From the NCBI GenBank assembly GCA_000004985.1, contig GG738873.1: a stretch of DNA of 64,000 nt; one strand, written 5' to 3'. The DNA is from Naegleria gruberi (Eukaryota). A program made the position numbers and the translations under genes. Under the pieces are notes generated by a model. That model worked only from the letters and a program-made list of their open reading frames with translations. It searched no databases and was not told the origin of the DNA. Below, in pieces: positions 29,363-31,514 of the stretch (within the stretch, counting starts at the first letter, position 1; each line of letters starts with the position of its first letter).

Positions 29363-30379
29363 CTAACTAATGTTTTGAGTGGGATAATTAACAATCTTGC
29401 TTAAAATAGTGGCAAATTGAATGCATTCTTGAACTGAGTTTGGATTGCAGCTCACTATTGAAACCATATTCGATTCTCCAAAGAAATCACCTTTTAAACT
29501 CTTGACAAATGAACATCCTTTGAGTGGTATGATGGGTTGTTGACATAGATCCAATGATCTTGCAATAGGCTTCAATTGTTTAAACACACAAGTCAATTCT
29601 TCACATTGATAATTGACCATTCGAATAAATTTCAATTGACTCTTATGAATGTGCTCTTTCTTTTCATTTTCATCCATGATTCTCCTATCCACTTCTATTA
29701 AAATATAATTTGACATTGTAAATGATGACGTTTCCTTTTGATTGTAGAAACAAGATGTGTTAAATAAACATCTTTCCAAAAATTCCAATGAATCTTTCAA
29801 ATTGAAAAGTGAAATCTTTGAATAGCCGTGAAGAATTGGTTCCTCATTGCTCTGAAATTTAATTACAGGAAAGTTTGCACTTAAAATATCATGAAATCGT
29901 TCACCTGTTAAGCAGAGACAAGATGCTTTGAGTGAAACTGAACTTTTCTGATCAGAAAATAAATGTTCAAACGATTGTTGTATCATTCCATTCATATCAT
30001 CATGTGTATTTCCCATCATTCTATGTCATTCATAACCAATTAATAGAAGAAAATATTAGAATTCAATTTGAAAGTAATCTTACATGTTCATATGGCTGAC
30101 ATCCTCTACAATCATAACAGTTCCATTGTATCCATGGAGTGTTTTATCAATGGTTGGCATGATTGCTTCTTTGAAATATATATTACAATTGACAGGACTT
30201 CATTCTTAAGAGAATTAGAATTTCTTGAAAACTTACTCTTCCACAACTCCATCATATTGATATTCTCTATTATTTTTCAAGTCAACAATGCACTTTCCCT
30301 TGTTGTCCTTAATTTCCATGTCTGTCAATTGATTACCATCATAAACATGCAAGACAACCACTGCTTGACTTTTAGACAT
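29363..30379 (-). CDS. Kinesin motor-domain homologue with degenerate ATPase motifs (pseudo-kinesin), paralogue 1; 3 exons: 30379..30237, 30197..30084, 30020..29363
   Basis: The spliced product is colinear with the kinesin motor. YQYDGVVEED aligns with YAFDRVF. GYNGTVMIVEDVSHMNIMMG aligns with [32 protein letters not shown] aligns with GIIPRIVQDIF. Switch I reads …KETSSFTMSNYILIEV and switch II LKFIRMVNYQCE. The terminal FATILSKIVNYP aligns with the kinesin STLRFANRAKNI tail motif. GTAAGT and GTAAGA donors. Motor-only length of about 305 aa, with no stalk or tail. Confidence 0.65.
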
Positions 30380-30427
30380 TTTTTAATTGTGAAGAGATTA
30401 AAAAGTGTGACACATTGTGACTTGTTA

Positions 30428-31514
30428 TTAATGTTTATGAACAGATTCTGTTGCAATATGCTTCTTAGGATGATTAACAATCTTTGAGAATGATGAAGCA
30501 ATTTGAATAGTTTTCAAAATTTGTTGTTTTGTTGTTCCAATACTAAATACGATTGATGTATTCGAATTGCCGCCTAAACCTTCTCTCAAGCTATGTGTCA
30601 GAACATTATCTCTGTATGGAATGAATTTTTCACCTGTTGTCAATCTGTTTACCACAGACAAAAACTGATCATAAGTTTTTGCCATTTCCAATCCTAGTTT
30701 GGAAGTTTCCAAAAAGTAATTCATAATATCCACAAACTTGATTTCACTCTTCAAAATTTGAAAACTTTTATCCTCTTCCTTCCATTCTCTTTGCTCAATT
30801 TCAATAATCATATAATAAACAGCATGTCTAGTATTTGTCGATCCATGTTGAGTAGCAAAAAGTGTTGAATGTTTCATTCCAGCATTCACCAATTCATTCA
30901 CAACTTTCATTGAGAGAACAGGAACTCTTTTCAATCCTTCAAAGCAAAGTGTCTTGTTAGGTAATTCCTTAAATTTAACTCTCGGAGTTGTTGAATCCAA
31001 AACATCATAAAATAATTGATTACACAACATTAGGGAGGAGGCATAAATTGTGACTTGATCGTGCTTTCCTTCAATCATTTCAAACAACTTTTCAAAGGTG
31101 TGAAATATTAAGCCCTTCTCATGACGCATTAATCTGTTTATGGGATAAAGAGCATTAAGAAAATTTAGATAATTACAAAGCTAGATATAAATACTAACGT
31201 TTTTCTATGAGCCTCATCTTCAAATAATAAAACAGTTCCATCAAAACCTAACATGGCTTGTTCAACAATTGGTTTCACAGCAACATTAAACAATTCTGAA
31301 CAATCTACAGGACTAACTCATCCGATATAAATAATAACAAAATCCATTCATTCAATGTGTATACTTACTCTTCAAATACTCCATCAAAAGGATACTCAGT
31401 TGTTGGCCACGTATTAAAATCTCTCATAATTTTCCCTTCCTTAATGCCCATATTAATGTCATCCGAGTAGTCATTCCAATCAAAAGCTTGAATATACACT
31501 GAAAGTGGTTTCAT
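30428..31514 (-). CDS. Kinesin motor-domain homologue with degenerate ATPase motifs (pseudo-kinesin), paralogue 2; 3 exons: 31514..31369, 31312..31199, 31133..30428
   Basis: The spliced product is MKPLSVYIQAFDW…YPFDGVFEED|SPVDCSELFNVAVKPIVEQAMLGFDGTVLLFEDEAHRKT|LMRHEKGLIFHTFEKLF…, compare KIF5B YAFDRVF…[37 protein letters not shown]…GIIPRIVQDIF. Also FATQHGSTNTRHAVYYMIIEI (switch I region), IKFVDIMNYF (switch II) and FIPYRDNVLTHSLREGLGGNSNTSIVFSIGT…TIQIASSFSKIVNHP (strong match to [20 protein letters not shown]…TLRFANRAKNI). Confidence 0.7.

What the first reader, a model, noticed from the sequence alone, without database searches (positions are those of the whole stretch)
29363..31514. Tandem pair of motor-domain-only kinesin homologues with all three ATPase motifs degenerate (pseudo-kinesins)
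Two adjacent minus-strand, 3-exon genes encode ~305-320-aa proteins colinear with the kinesin motor, with the same intron positions in both copies. Their N-terminal YxFDGVF block and YNGT motif align with the kinesin N-terminus. Later come an IPYRD…LGGNSNTSIVFSIGT block and a terminal …TIQIASSFSKIVN (kinesin STLRFANRAKNI) motif. The P-loop GQTxSGKT is replaced by FEDEAHRKT / VEDVSHMNI. Switch I SSRSH is replaced by NTRHA / TSSFT. Switch II DLAGSE is replaced by DIMNYF / RMVNYQ. Neither copy has a coiled-coil stalk or tail: stop and start codons of neighbouring genes are ~50-100 nt away. The paralogues are quite diverged from each other, so this is an old duplication kept under some constraint rather than a fresh pseudogene. 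Catalytically dead, motor-only kinesin-fold proteins maintained as a tandem pair are not a described family that I know of. They could be microtubule- or kinesin-binding regulators analogous to pseudokinases.
Basis: partly seen in the sequence, partly recalled or inferred. Interest (0 to 1): 0.75.

Follow-up and report, generated by a model that had tools for sequence, protein, structure and literature searches.

The report
Dead motor-only kinesin pair in Naegleria
Two neighbouring genes of a Naegleria amoeba encode bare kinesin motor domains that have lost their ATP-burning residues yet are still kept intact by natural selection, a small species-restricted addition to the known class of "dead" kinesins whose job is unknown.

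Summary
On the minus strand, 31514-30428 (A, 321 aa) and 30379-29363 (B, 304 aa) are three-exon genes with introns at identical positions. Both pass Pfam's kinesin threshold (E 1.5e-30 and 2.3e-10). The P-loop, switch I, switch II and RxRP motifs are degenerate, and there is no stalk or tail.

Corrections:
- The organism is a Naegleria (Heterolobosea), not a dictyostelid.
- Copy A still has the Walker-A Lys-Thr, the switch-I Arg-His and the switch-II Asp.

New evidence:
- A 98%-identical metagenome strain gives 13 synonymous and 4 non-synonymous exon changes (pN/pS 0.06 and 0.09). Introns diverge about three times faster than exons. Both genes are therefore under purifying selection.
- A and B share the same replacement at 8 of 29 lost consensus positions, so their common ancestor was already dead.
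- The pair is the only extra element between Med16 and CIR compared with N. lovaniensis and a second Naegleria contig.
- Among 1.84 billion representative proteins, only the metagenome fragment of gene A itself scored above ordinary kinesins.
- The canonical microtubule face is eroded: L11 is shortened and the positive charge is lost. Only A keeps the PYRD…LGGN block.

Verdict: real, functional, lineage-restricted non-catalytic kinesin-fold proteins. They are a new variant of a known kind (KIF26/VAB-8, Cos2, Vik1/Cik1). Mechanism is unproven. Moderate interest.

The parts
30428..31514 (-). Gene A: 3-exon, 321-aa motor-domain-only kinesin homologue. Exons 31514-31369, 31312-31199, 31133-30428 (stop included); introns 31368-31313 (56 nt) and 31198-31134 (65 nt).
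   Evidence: Only open splice combination. PF00225 E 1.5e-30. In the comparison with L001, both indels outside exon 3 lie in an intron and the substitution density is about 3-fold higher in introns. pN/pS 0.06.
29363..30379 (-). Gene B: 3-exon, 304-aa motor-domain-only kinesin homologue, more degenerate than A. Exons 30379-30237, 30197-30084, 30020-29363 (stop included); introns 30236-30198 (39 nt) and 30083-30021 (63 nt).
   Evidence: Only open splice combination. PF00225 E 2.3e-10, above the gathering score. 29% identical to A, E 2e-39. pN/pS 0.09.
31199..31224 (-). A: former P-loop, residues 79-87, FEDEAHRKT (kinesin A-Y-GQTxxGKT). Both glycines are replaced (G->E, G->R) and three acidic residues are present; Lys86-Thr87 are kept. 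The last codon is completed by base 31133 across intron 2.
   Evidence: Alignment to KIF3B and to 105 kinesin motors.
30824..30844 (-). A: former switch I, residues 184-190, GSTNTRH (kinesin NxxSSRSH). Arg and His are kept; both Ser are lost and there is a one-residue deletion.
30713..30730 (-). A: former switch II, residues 222-227, DIMNYF (kinesin DLAGSE). Only Asp is kept. It is followed by an L11 loop about 8 residues shorter than in kinesins.
30557..30619 (-). A: retained L12/alpha5/beta8 block, residues 259-279, PYRDNVLTHSLREGLGGNSNT. 11 of 12 near-invariant kinesin positions are kept, including the Arg of PYR.
   Evidence: B keeps only 3 of these 12 positions.
30467..30487 (-). A: end of alpha6 and start of the neck linker, SKIVNHP (kinesin RAKxIKNKP). 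The protein ends 12 residues later. The same SKIVN-P is present in B at 29381-29401.
   Evidence: Invariant between A and B. Direct repeat D3.
30084..30109 (-). B: former P-loop, residues 78-86, VEDVSHMNI. No Walker-A residue is left. It shares E, D and H with A. The last codon is completed by base 30020 across intron 2.
29711..29734 (-). B: former switch I, residues 182-189, ETSSFTMS.
29606..29623 (-). B: former switch II, residues 219-224, RMVNYQ. It shares N-Y with A.
30380..30427 (-). 48-nt spacer between the A stop and the B start. It ends in the leader TTCACAATTAAAAAA directly before the B ATG.
   Evidence: A near-identical leader (TTCACAATTTAAAAAAAA) precedes the A ATG at 31515-31532.
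31515..31792 (.). 278-nt divergent intergenic region between the A start (31514, minus) and the real start of the CIR-like gene (ATG 31793, plus).
   Evidence: CIR homology to N. lovaniensis and L003 begins at ORF residue 37. The same A-rich start context is present on both sides.
26716..29257 (-). Flanking gene: Mediator subunit 16-like, made of two ORFs (29257-27701 and 27657-26716). It marks one edge of the position where the kinesin pair sits.
   Evidence: 39-41% identical to N. lovaniensis C9374_009314, named Mediator complex subunit 16 by UniRef. In N. lovaniensis and L003 it directly abuts the CIR-like gene.

Best explanation
**What it is.** A and B are functional, catalytically inactive, monomeric kinesin-fold proteins (pseudo-enzymes). 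They are encoded by a tandem pair found, as far as the data reach, only in this Naegleria lineage.

**Shown here**
- Each protein is a complete kinesin motor domain and nothing more.
- The residues that bind and hydrolyse ATP are replaced. These are the RxRP adenine contact, both P-loop glycines, the switch-I serines, and the switch-II Gly and Glu. In A, three acidic residues occupy the phosphate loop.
- Much of this loss was inherited from a single dead ancestor.
- Both genes are under strong purifying selection today.

**Inferred**
- With no nucleotide cycle and no dimerising stalk, they cannot walk. They must act by binding something.
- I think the most likely mode is nucleotide-independent, static binding to tubulin or microtubules by A. 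A keeps the L12/alpha5 contact block (PYRD..LT..LGGN), and a kinesin head without nucleotide is by default in the strongly bound state.
- B has lost that block. It would then be a diverged partner or a variant with a different target.
- The replacements shared by both copies (ED..H in the old P-loop, N-Y in old switch II, EDPVxC, SKIVN-P) probably hold the fold in one fixed conformation or form a new binding surface.
For: - **Fold and family:** PF00225 E 1.5e-30 and 2.3e-10. PDB sequence hits are kinesins at every significant rank. The AlphaFold model of A exon 3 has pLDDT 90.5. Its best PDB matches are kinesin motors with TM 0.80-0.86.
- **Motif loss:** A keeps 30 and B keeps 22 of 74 positions that are at least 85% conserved in 105 kinesins. 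The catalytic positions are among those lost. No other frame encodes them.
- **Selection:** 13 synonymous and 4 non-synonymous changes against strain L001; pN/pS 0.06 and 0.09; introns diverge about 3-fold faster than exons.
- **Dead ancestor:** 8 of 29 doubly deviant positions carry the same residue in A and B, p 2e-4.
- **A keeps the alpha5 block:** 11 of 12 positions.
- **Restricted distribution:** apart from the metagenome fragment of gene A itself (P0001), only ordinary kinesins (at most 83 bits) were found among 1.84 billion representatives. Nothing was found in two pattern-limited scans of JGI metagenome contigs or one of IMG/VR. The pair is absent from the syntenic Med16-CIR junction in N. 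lovaniensis and in contig L003.
- **Precedent for ATP-independent kinesin-like binders:** KIF26A (PMC12783630), Cos2 (PMC2867816) and Vik1/Cik1 (PMC4338441, PMC3384419).
Against: - **Eroded microtubule interface:** the L11-alpha4-L12-alpha5 segment is shorter than in any of the 105 kinesins (45 and 40 aa against 48-69). Its net charge is 0 and +2 against a median of +5. The alpha4 consensus (I-N-x-S-L) is lost. Both proteins are acidic overall, with pI 6.2 and 5.7. Canonical microtubule binding is therefore doubtful, especially for B.
- **No direct data:** there is no expression, localisation or binding evidence.
- **Thin selection test:** it rests on 17 substitutions from one 1.7-kb metagenome contig. 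That contig also has a +1 frameshift in A exon 3 (a T5 run becomes T6), which could be real.
- **Residual site in A:** A keeps K-T, R-H and D, so weak nucleotide binding cannot be excluded from sequence alone.
- **Model caveats:** the structure model covers only exon 3 and was driven by a kinesin alignment.
Confidence: 0.5

Rival explanations
1. The proteins are functional dead kinesin folds, but their ligand is not tubulin. The fold has been re-used as a scaffold or decoy that binds another protein, for example a factor that normally recognises kinesin heads, or a small ligand in the remodelled pocket.
For: - The canonical microtubule face is shortened and has lost its positive charge in both copies, and the alpha4 consensus is lost.
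- The residues conserved between A and B but foreign to kinesins lie in the former nucleotide pocket (ED..H, N-Y) and at EDPVxC and SKIVN-P. This fits a new constrained surface.
- Purifying selection shows that some function exists.
Against: - A keeps 11 of 12 positions of the L12/alpha5/beta8 block, including the PYR arginine. That is hard to explain if tubulin contact were irrelevant, although part of the block is structural core.
- No candidate partner is indicated by the neighbouring genes (Med16, CIR, EF-G).
Confidence: 0.3
2. The two genes are decaying duplicates (pseudogenes or junk ORFs) with no function, and their intact frames are a coincidence.
For: - All catalytic motifs are lost.
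- No orthologue is seen in other Naegleria at the syntenic site.
- The metagenome strain carries a 1-nt insertion that splits A exon 3.
Against: - Both frames are open across three exons with canonical splice sites.
- 13 of 17 exon substitutions are synonymous (p 7e-7), and pN/pS is 0.06 and 0.09.
- Every indel except the single +1 T in A exon 3 lies in an intron, and introns diverge fastest.
- The three substitutions downstream of the frameshift are all synonymous in the original frame, so the frameshift is recent or an assembly error.
- At 29% identity between the copies, neutral decay would long ago have destroyed the frames.
Confidence: 0.05
3. Copy A is still an NTPase or nucleotide-binding switch with a non-canonical site, and B is its inactive partner, as in pairs of active and dead subunits.
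For: A retains Walker-A Lys86-Thr87, switch-I Arg189-His190 and switch-II Asp222. B has none of them.
Against: - Both P-loop glycines are replaced (G->E, G->R).
- Three acidic residues sit where the phosphates bind.
- The switch-II Gly and Glu, and the adenine-contacting RxRP, are gone.
- There is no coiled coil to pair A with B.
Confidence: 0.07
4. The gene models are wrong. The two units are exons of one larger gene, or of a gene with further exons that supply a stalk or the missing motifs.
For: - The A stop and the B start are only 48 nt apart.
- The splice models are predictions without cDNA.
Against: - No frame in 29200-31800 encodes a P-loop, switch II or RxRP.
- No usable donor lies near the A stop.
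- SKIVN-P followed by a stop is conserved in both copies.
- Both ATGs carry the same A-rich leader as the neighbouring genes.
- The flanks are occupied by conserved genes that are syntenic with N. lovaniensis.
- The substitution pattern fits the proposed exons and introns.
Confidence: 0.03

Closest known systems
Kinesin-11: vertebrate KIF26A/KIF26B and C. elegans VAB-8
   Same: They have a kinesin-like motor domain with degenerate nucleotide-site residues. KIF26A lacks ATPase activity (PMC12783630). They act by binding rather than by moving. VAB-8 is described as very highly divergent (PMC2867816), and the family is defined in PMC5590807.
   Different: Those are proteins of about 1000-2000 aa with long signalling tails, and they are animal-specific. 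The Naegleria proteins are bare 304-321-aa motor domains. No specific sequence relationship to Kinesin-11 was seen; the best hits are Kinesin-2, -7, -4, -8 and -1 motors within about 10 bits of one another. Orthology is therefore very unlikely.
Vik1 and Cik1 of budding yeast (non-catalytic motor homology domains partnering Kar3)
   Same: They have a kinesin-fold domain without a nucleotide-binding site that still has a function (microtubule binding) and is maintained by selection (PMC4338441, PMC3384419).
   Different: In Vik1/Cik1 the domain is C-terminal and follows a coiled coil that heterodimerises with an active kinesin-14. Here there is no coiled coil at all. The domain is of the N-terminal-motor type with a neck-linker stub, and the sequence is still recognisably kinesin by Pfam.
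Drosophila Costal-2 (Cos2) and yeast Smy1
   Same: They are atypical kinesin relatives thought to lack motor activity. [quoted passage not shown]
   Different: Both are long multi-domain proteins with stalks and cargo-binding or signalling regions.
The 'most divergent' kinesin-like sequences excluded from kinesin phylogenies (166 of 1624 in Wickstead et al. 2010), and the fungal orphan group 'pseudoKinesin-21'
   Same: They are lineage-specific, highly divergent PF00225 matches that fit no kinesin family (PMC2867816, PMC5076506). That survey covered Naegleria, so A and B may already be counted there as anonymous predicted proteins (inference).
   Different: Those sequences are catalogued but not analysed. 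Here purifying selection, inherited loss of the catalytic site, the stand-alone architecture and the synteny-defined lineage restriction are documented.
Kinesin-2 motor domains (KIF3B, Giardia kinesin-2a)
   Same: They are the highest-scoring solved relatives of A (73 and 70 bits). They share the N-type motor and an 'I-x-N-x-P' neck-linker start. Naegleria builds flagella and has Kinesin-2 (10.1101/2024.01.08.573270).
   Different: The margin over other families is about 6-10 bits. Against the 150 representative hits, Kinesin-7-like proteins score as well. There is no stalk for heterotrimer formation. The family of origin is unresolved.

Membership tests
Kinesin superfamily (motor-domain homology, PF00225) | Significant match to the kinesin motor profile above the curated threshold, colinear over the domain | tested here: met
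   A scores 106.8 bits and B 40.4 bits against a cut-off of 29.3. A covers profile positions 33-316 of 327.
Kinesin superfamily (motor-domain homology, PF00225) | Kinesin motor fold | tested here: met
   The AF2 model of A exon 3 (233 aa) has pLDDT 90.5. Foldseek top 50 are kinesin motors (two rows are chains of a sperm-axoneme map whose identity the entry title does not give), with TMq 0.75-0.86. Caveats: only the C-terminal two thirds were modelled, and the alignment consisted of kinesins.
Active kinesin motors (ATPase) | P-loop GQTxxGK[ST] | tested here: not met
   A has EDEAHRKT (only K and T are kept). B has EDVSHMNI.
Active kinesin motors (ATPase) | Switch I NxxSSRSH and switch II DLAGSE | tested here: not met
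   A has GSTNTR-H and DIMNYF. B has ETSSFTMS and RMVNYQ. No alternative frame supplies these motifs.
Active kinesin motors (ATPase) | RxRP adenine-binding motif in beta1 | tested here: not met
   A has Q-A-F-D and B has H-V-Y-D at the aligned columns.
Active kinesin motors (ATPase) | Canonical microtubule-binding face (L11, alpha4, L12, alpha5; net positive charge) | tested here: inconclusive
   A keeps 11 of 12 positions in PYR..LT..L...LGGN..T; B keeps 3 of 12. In both, L11 is shortened, the alpha4 consensus is lost and net charge is 0 and +2 against a median of +5. Actual binding cannot be tested here.
Active kinesin motors (ATPase) | Microtubule-stimulated ATPase activity or motility | not testable with these tools
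   This needs recombinant protein assays.
Kinesin-2 | Placement in the Kinesin-2 clade, with a coiled-coil stalk for hetero- or homodimerisation | tested here: not met
   No stalk: both proteins end 5-12 residues after the neck-linker start. Kinesin-2 motors are top PDB hits only by a small margin, and Kinesin-7-like hits score equally. No phylogeny was run.
Kinesin-11 (KIF26/VAB-8) | Degenerate N-terminal motor followed by a long C-terminal tail; orthology to animal KIF26 | tested here: not met
   No tail is present. Direct comparison with KIF26 sequences was not done. No KIF26-like protein stood out among the hits.
Vik1/Cik1-type motor homology domain | C-terminal non-catalytic kinesin fold attached to a coiled coil that pairs with a catalytic kinesin-14 | tested here: not met
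   The non-catalytic fold is present. However, there is no coiled coil, and the domain is the whole protein with an N-type neck-linker stub.

The most novel reading that the evidence does not exclude
A and B could represent a previously uncharacterised class: stand-alone, nucleotide-free kinesin heads that arose in one Naegleria lineage. Their former ATP pocket, marked by the shared ED..H and N-Y replacements, would have been rebuilt into a new binding or conformational-lock site. On this reading they act as monomeric regulators. One possibility is that they cap or mark one of Naegleria's two separate microtubule systems (flagellar and mitotic tubulins). Another is that they compete with active kinesin heads for lattice sites.
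Probability: 0.12. Interest if true: 0.7.

Novelty: new variant of a known kind. Interest (0 to 1): 0.4.

Why it matters
Dead relatives of enzymes often turn out to be regulators, and kinesin examples are few and are all large multi-domain proteins. This is a kinesin head with no stalk and no tail. It has lost its ATP site yet is still under strong purifying selection, so it is a clean natural test of what the kinesin fold can do without its chemistry.

Naegleria builds its flagellar and mitotic microtubule arrays from different tubulins, largely with distinct sets of regulators. A lineage-specific kinesin-fold binder could therefore be part of how those arrays are told apart.

The practical importance is modest. 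The pair appears restricted to one species lineage, and no function has been shown.

Tried and rejected
**Searches that found nothing**
1. A word-indexed search with full-length A found no hits.
2. Two pattern-based scans of JGI metagenome contigs, which only reach sequences matching two short peptide patterns each, found no relatives.
3. A scan of IMG/VR viral contigs found none either. A recent viral origin is also unlikely given the spliceosomal introns and host-like GC content.
4. A full HMMER scan of 1.84 billion representatives used the exon-3 profile. It found only a fragment from a near-identical metagenome strain, plus ordinary kinesins. Only the top 150 of 3305 hits are visible, so very divergent orthologues could be hidden.
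5. No paper mentions the metagenome project PRJEB11402, so the habitat of the second strain is unknown.
6. The Naegleria microtubule-component census has no supplementary tables held as text, so I could not check whether A and B are listed there or how they are expressed.

Only exon-3 translations could be used.
8. The first structure prediction, from a two-sequence alignment, was useless (pLDDT 40) and I did not use it.

**Ideas rejected or left unresolved**
9. I rejected the dictyostelid origin. It had been suggested by a RegA-type gene, but the best relatives are heteroloboseans.
10. Assigning A and B to a kinesin family by best hits is unresolved, because Kinesin-2, -7, -4, -8 and -1 score within about 10 bits of each other. 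I did not attempt a tree, since long-branch artefacts would dominate.
11. Contig L004, a third Naegleria-like genome, ends 400 nt upstream of Med16. That stretch shows neither CIR nor kinesin coding sequence, so it gives only weak evidence of absence.
12. I found no flanking repeats that would mark an insertion. The only repeats are remnants of the A/B duplication and the shared start-codon leader.
13. A read-through or splice fusion of A to B is ruled out, because no workable donor and acceptor pair exists.
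Full report
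**1. What is in the sequence**

Reading the minus strand of 29000-32000 and testing every GT..AG combination gives exactly one open model for each unit.
- Gene A has exons 31514-31369, 31312-31199 and 31133-30428, with introns of 56 and 65 nt. It encodes 321 aa.
- Gene B has exons 30379-30237, 30197-30084 and 30020-29363, with introns of 39 and 63 nt. It encodes 304 aa.
- In both genes the first intron splits ..(F/V)E|D-P-V.. in phase 2. The second intron follows the last residue of the former P-loop, also in phase 2. The duplication was therefore DNA-based and included the introns.
- Both ATGs are preceded by almost the same leader: TTCACAATT(T)AAAAAA(AA)-ATG. A similar A-rich context precedes the neighbouring CIR-like and Med16-like genes. 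This supports the start codons.

**2. Are they kinesin homologues?**

Yes.
- Pfam PF00225 scores 106.8 bits for A (E 1.5e-30, profile positions 33-316 of 327). It scores 40.4 bits for B (E 2.3e-10). Both exceed the gathering score of 29.3.
- A and B are 29% identical (E 2e-39).
- Sequence search of the PDB returns kinesin motors at every significant rank (two non-kinesin rows for B have E above 0.3). Best for A are KIF3B (2.5e-19) and Giardia kinesin-2. Best for B is N. crassa kinesin-1.
With a two-sequence alignment the model was useless (pLDDT 40). With 62 kinesins added it reached pLDDT 90.5. Its 50 best PDB matches are kinesin motors apart from two unnamed chains of a sperm-axoneme map, with TMq 0.75-0.86.
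- The model was driven by a kinesin alignment, so it confirms compatibility with the fold rather than adding independent proof.

**3. State of the catalytic and microtubule-binding residues**

I aligned A and B with 105 complete kinesin motors taken from the database hits. I then looked at the 74 columns that are at least 85% conserved. A keeps 30 of them and B keeps 22.

| Element | Kinesin consensus | A | B |
|---|---|---|---|
| Adenine contact | R-x-R-P | Q-A-F-D | H-V-Y-D |
| P-loop | GQTxxGKT | EDEAHRKT (K86, T87 kept) | EDVSHMNI |
| Switch I | NxxSSRSH | GSTNTR-H (R189, H190 kept) | ETSSFTMS |
| Switch II | DLAGSE | DIMNYF (D222 kept) | RMVNYQ |

- In A both P-loop glycines are replaced, three acidic residues fill the phosphate loop, and the switch-II Gly and Glu are gone. 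ATP binding and hydrolysis are therefore very unlikely. This is inference from the established roles of these residues in kinesins.
- No reading frame in 29200-31800 encodes GxxxxGK[ST], DxxGxE or RxRP. Alternative splicing cannot rescue the site.
- On the microtubule side, A keeps 11 of 12 near-invariant positions of the L12/alpha5/beta8 block (PYRDNVLTHSLREGLGGNSNT). B keeps 3.
- The whole L11-alpha4-L12-alpha5 segment is 45 aa in A and 40 aa in B. That is shorter than in any of the 105 kinesins (48-69 aa, median 54).
- The net charge of that segment is 0 in A and +2 in B, against a median of +5. The alpha4 I-N-x-S-L signature is lost. The proteins are acidic overall, with pI 6.2 and 5.7 against a median of 7.7.

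**4. No stalk or tail**

- Beta1 starts at residue 6 in A and at about residue 8 in B.
- A ends 12 residues after the neck-linker start SKIVNHP, and B ends 5 residues after SKIVNYP.
- The A stop and B start are 48 nt apart. The B stop is 105 nt from the Med16-like ATG. The A start is 278 nt from the real CIR-like ATG at 31793.
- No workable donor and acceptor pair fuses A to B.

**5. The organism**

- The window has 33% GC.
- It carries a response-regulator plus phosphodiesterase gene, which superficially suggests Dictyostelium RegA.
- The best relatives of that ORF are Naegleria lovaniensis (71%), Willaertia magna (66%) and Acrasis kona (53%).
- The Med16-like neighbour hits N. lovaniensis at 39%.
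- The window is therefore from a Naegleria. It is probably of the N. gruberi group, but that last step is inference. The source genome itself is not in the searchable collections.

**6. Are the genes alive?**

- The full HMMER scan of 1.84 billion representative proteins found one strong hit. P0001 is a 153-aa fragment on a 1717-nt ENA metagenome contig (ERZ929261, locus L001).
- L001 is 98.25% identical to window 31436-29725 and spans most of A and half of B.
- Mapped on the gene models, the exons carry 17 substitutions in about 1440 nt. Thirteen are synonymous and four are non-synonymous.
- pN/pS is 0.06 for A and 0.09 for B. The binomial p is 7e-7 against site proportions, and 1e-4 even if 30% of neutral changes were synonymous.
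- The four introns carry 8 substitutions and two indels in 223 nt.
- This pattern validates the exon-intron models and shows purifying selection on both copies.
- One caveat remains. L001 has a +1 T in a T5 run at 30716 that splits A exon 3. The three substitutions downstream are all synonymous in the original frame. It is therefore either an assembly error or a very recent lesion.

**7. When was the catalytic site lost?**

- There are 29 conserved kinesin columns where both A and B deviate from the consensus. At 8 of them the two proteins carry the same replacement. These include P-loop G->E and Q->D, switch-II G->N and S->Y, and RxRP P->D.
- Chance identity is 6%, giving p 2e-4.
- The common ancestor of A and B was therefore already non-catalytic.
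- These replacement residues have been conserved since then, which suggests they now matter.

**8. Distribution and synteny**

- In N. lovaniensis (L002, PYSW02000038.1) and in a second Naegleria contig (L003, ERZ2098899) the gene order is EF-G | Med16 | CIR | an 843/889-aa gene. Med16 and CIR are adjacent and divergent.
- The window has the same four genes in the same order and orientation. Identities are 77-82% for EF-G, 38-41% for Med16, 54-56% for CIR and 63-73% for the large gene.
- The two kinesin-like genes are inserted between Med16 and CIR.
- tblastn with A and B finds nothing in L002, L003 or L004.
- By EF-G identity, L002 and L003 are close (88%). L004 and the window are each about 80% from everything else. 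The lineages form an unresolved trichotomy.
- L004 ends 400 nt upstream of Med16 without any B-like coding sequence. This is weak evidence of absence.
- Apart from P0001, which is gene A itself in a second strain, the 150 best hits are ordinary kinesins of at most 83 bits. The complete ones have intact motifs. Most of those lacking a P-loop match are N-terminally truncated fragments.
- Two JGI metagenome scans and one IMG/VR scan found no relatives, though each only reached sequences matching two short peptide patterns.
- A single gain in the window's lineage is slightly more parsimonious than loss elsewhere.
- On the other hand, A and B (29% identical) are more diverged than even the fast-evolving Med16 orthologues (about 40%). 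An older origin with relocation or loss therefore cannot be excluded.

**9. Family of origin**

- A's best solved relatives are Kinesin-2 motors (73 and 70 bits). KIF4, Kinesin-8 and Kinesin-1 follow within 10 bits.
- Against the 150 representatives, Kinesin-7-like and Kinesin-2-like proteins are interleaved.
- The family of origin is unresolved. It is an N-type motor with an I-x-N-x-P neck-linker start.

**10. How it most likely works**

- Shown: a kinesin fold, a dead nucleotide site, no dimerisation or cargo domain, and selective constraint.
- It follows that these proteins cannot be motors and must act by binding.
- My leading model has confidence of about 0.35 for this step. In it, A is a nucleotide-independent, static tubulin or microtubule binder.
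  - A kinesin head without nucleotide is in the strong-binding state (established kinesin mechanochemistry).
  - A retains the L12/alpha5 contacts.
  - All characterised dead kinesins (KIF26A, Cos2, Vik1/Cik1) still bind microtubules (PMC12783630, PMC2867816, PMC4338441, PMC3384419).
- The main rival has confidence of about 0.3. In it the fold has been re-used for a non-tubulin ligand. This is supported by the shortened, de-charged microtubule face and by A/B-specific conserved residues in the old pocket.
- I consider pseudogene decay, residual NTPase activity and gene-model artefact unlikely, for the reasons given above.

**11. Comparison with what is known, and novelty**

- Non-catalytic kinesin relatives are an established category. 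About 10% of kinesin-like sequences in a 45-genome survey that included Naegleria were too divergent to classify (PMC2867816). A fungal 'pseudoKinesin-21' group has also been named (PMC5076506).
- A census of Naegleria microtubule components used PF00225 as its diagnostic domain (10.1101/2024.01.08.573270). A and B have therefore probably been counted as anonymous kinesin-domain proteins.
- What appears undescribed is the combination of features: a stand-alone motor domain with no stalk, a tandem pair descended from an already dead ancestor, strong purifying selection, and restriction to one Naegleria lineage.
- I rate this as a new variant of a known kind, with moderate interest (0.4).
- The finding is real and tidy, but it concerns a narrowly distributed gene pair with no functional data.

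Noticed in passing
window 31515-31532 (-), 30380-30393 (-), 31778-31792 (+), 5571-5584 (-), 29258-29268 (-): A shared A-rich leader, CACAAWTT(W)AAAAAA, lies directly before the ATGs of kinesin A, kinesin B, the CIR-like gene and a CN-hydrolase ORF. A shorter AATTAAAAAAA lies before Med16. As a bare pattern it is not significantly enriched (4 against 1.5 expected), but 3 of the 4 hits abut start codons. It may be a Naegleria start-site or initiator context.
   Followed up: partly
L001 position corresponding to window 30716: The 98%-identical metagenome strain has a +1 T in a T5 run that frameshifts gene A exon 3, so two ORFs are called there. All three substitutions downstream are synonymous in the original frame. 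It is either an assembly error or a very recent disabling mutation.
   Followed up: partly
window 1157-3451 (+) and 3471-4580 (+): There is a RegA-type gene (response-regulator receiver plus class-I cyclic-nucleotide phosphodiesterase), followed by Tfb4. The same pair is adjacent in another Naegleria-like contig (L006). Homologues occur in N. lovaniensis, Willaertia and Acrasis (one is annotated 'cAMP phosphodiesterase regA').
   Followed up: partly
window 5716-7176 (-): A 486-aa protein made of seven DUF4116 repeats (E 2.9e-64).
   Followed up: no
window 38194-38380, inside ORF 37345-38610 (-): This is a locally GC-rich patch (42.6% GC against 33% for the window, with strong negative GC skew). 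It consists of imperfect CCACCTCCACCA-type repeats, and long ORFs are open on both strands (37345-38610 on minus, 37802-38629 on plus). There is no Pfam match. It is probably a Gly-rich low-complexity coding repeat.
   Followed up: partly
window 39337-41649 (+): A 770-aa ORF with extreme A-over-T skew (AT skew up to 0.51) and AAGAA-type short repeats. It has no Pfam match and is probably a Lys/Glu-rich low-complexity protein.
   Followed up: no
window 26703/26716 and 33049/33059: Convergent gene pairs end only 12 and 9 nt apart (EF-G with Med16, and CIR with the 755-aa gene). Head-to-tail spacers are 48-105 nt. This is very tight gene packing, and it implies overlapping 3' UTRs or terminators.
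   Followed up: no
L004 1-402 (ENA ERZ27315067 contig k141_1589106): In this third Naegleria-like genome, the 400 nt upstream of Med16 contain neither the CIR-like gene (adjacent in N. lovaniensis and L003) nor any kinesin-like sequence. The stretch looks non-coding. The local gene order may differ again in this lineage.
   Followed up: partly
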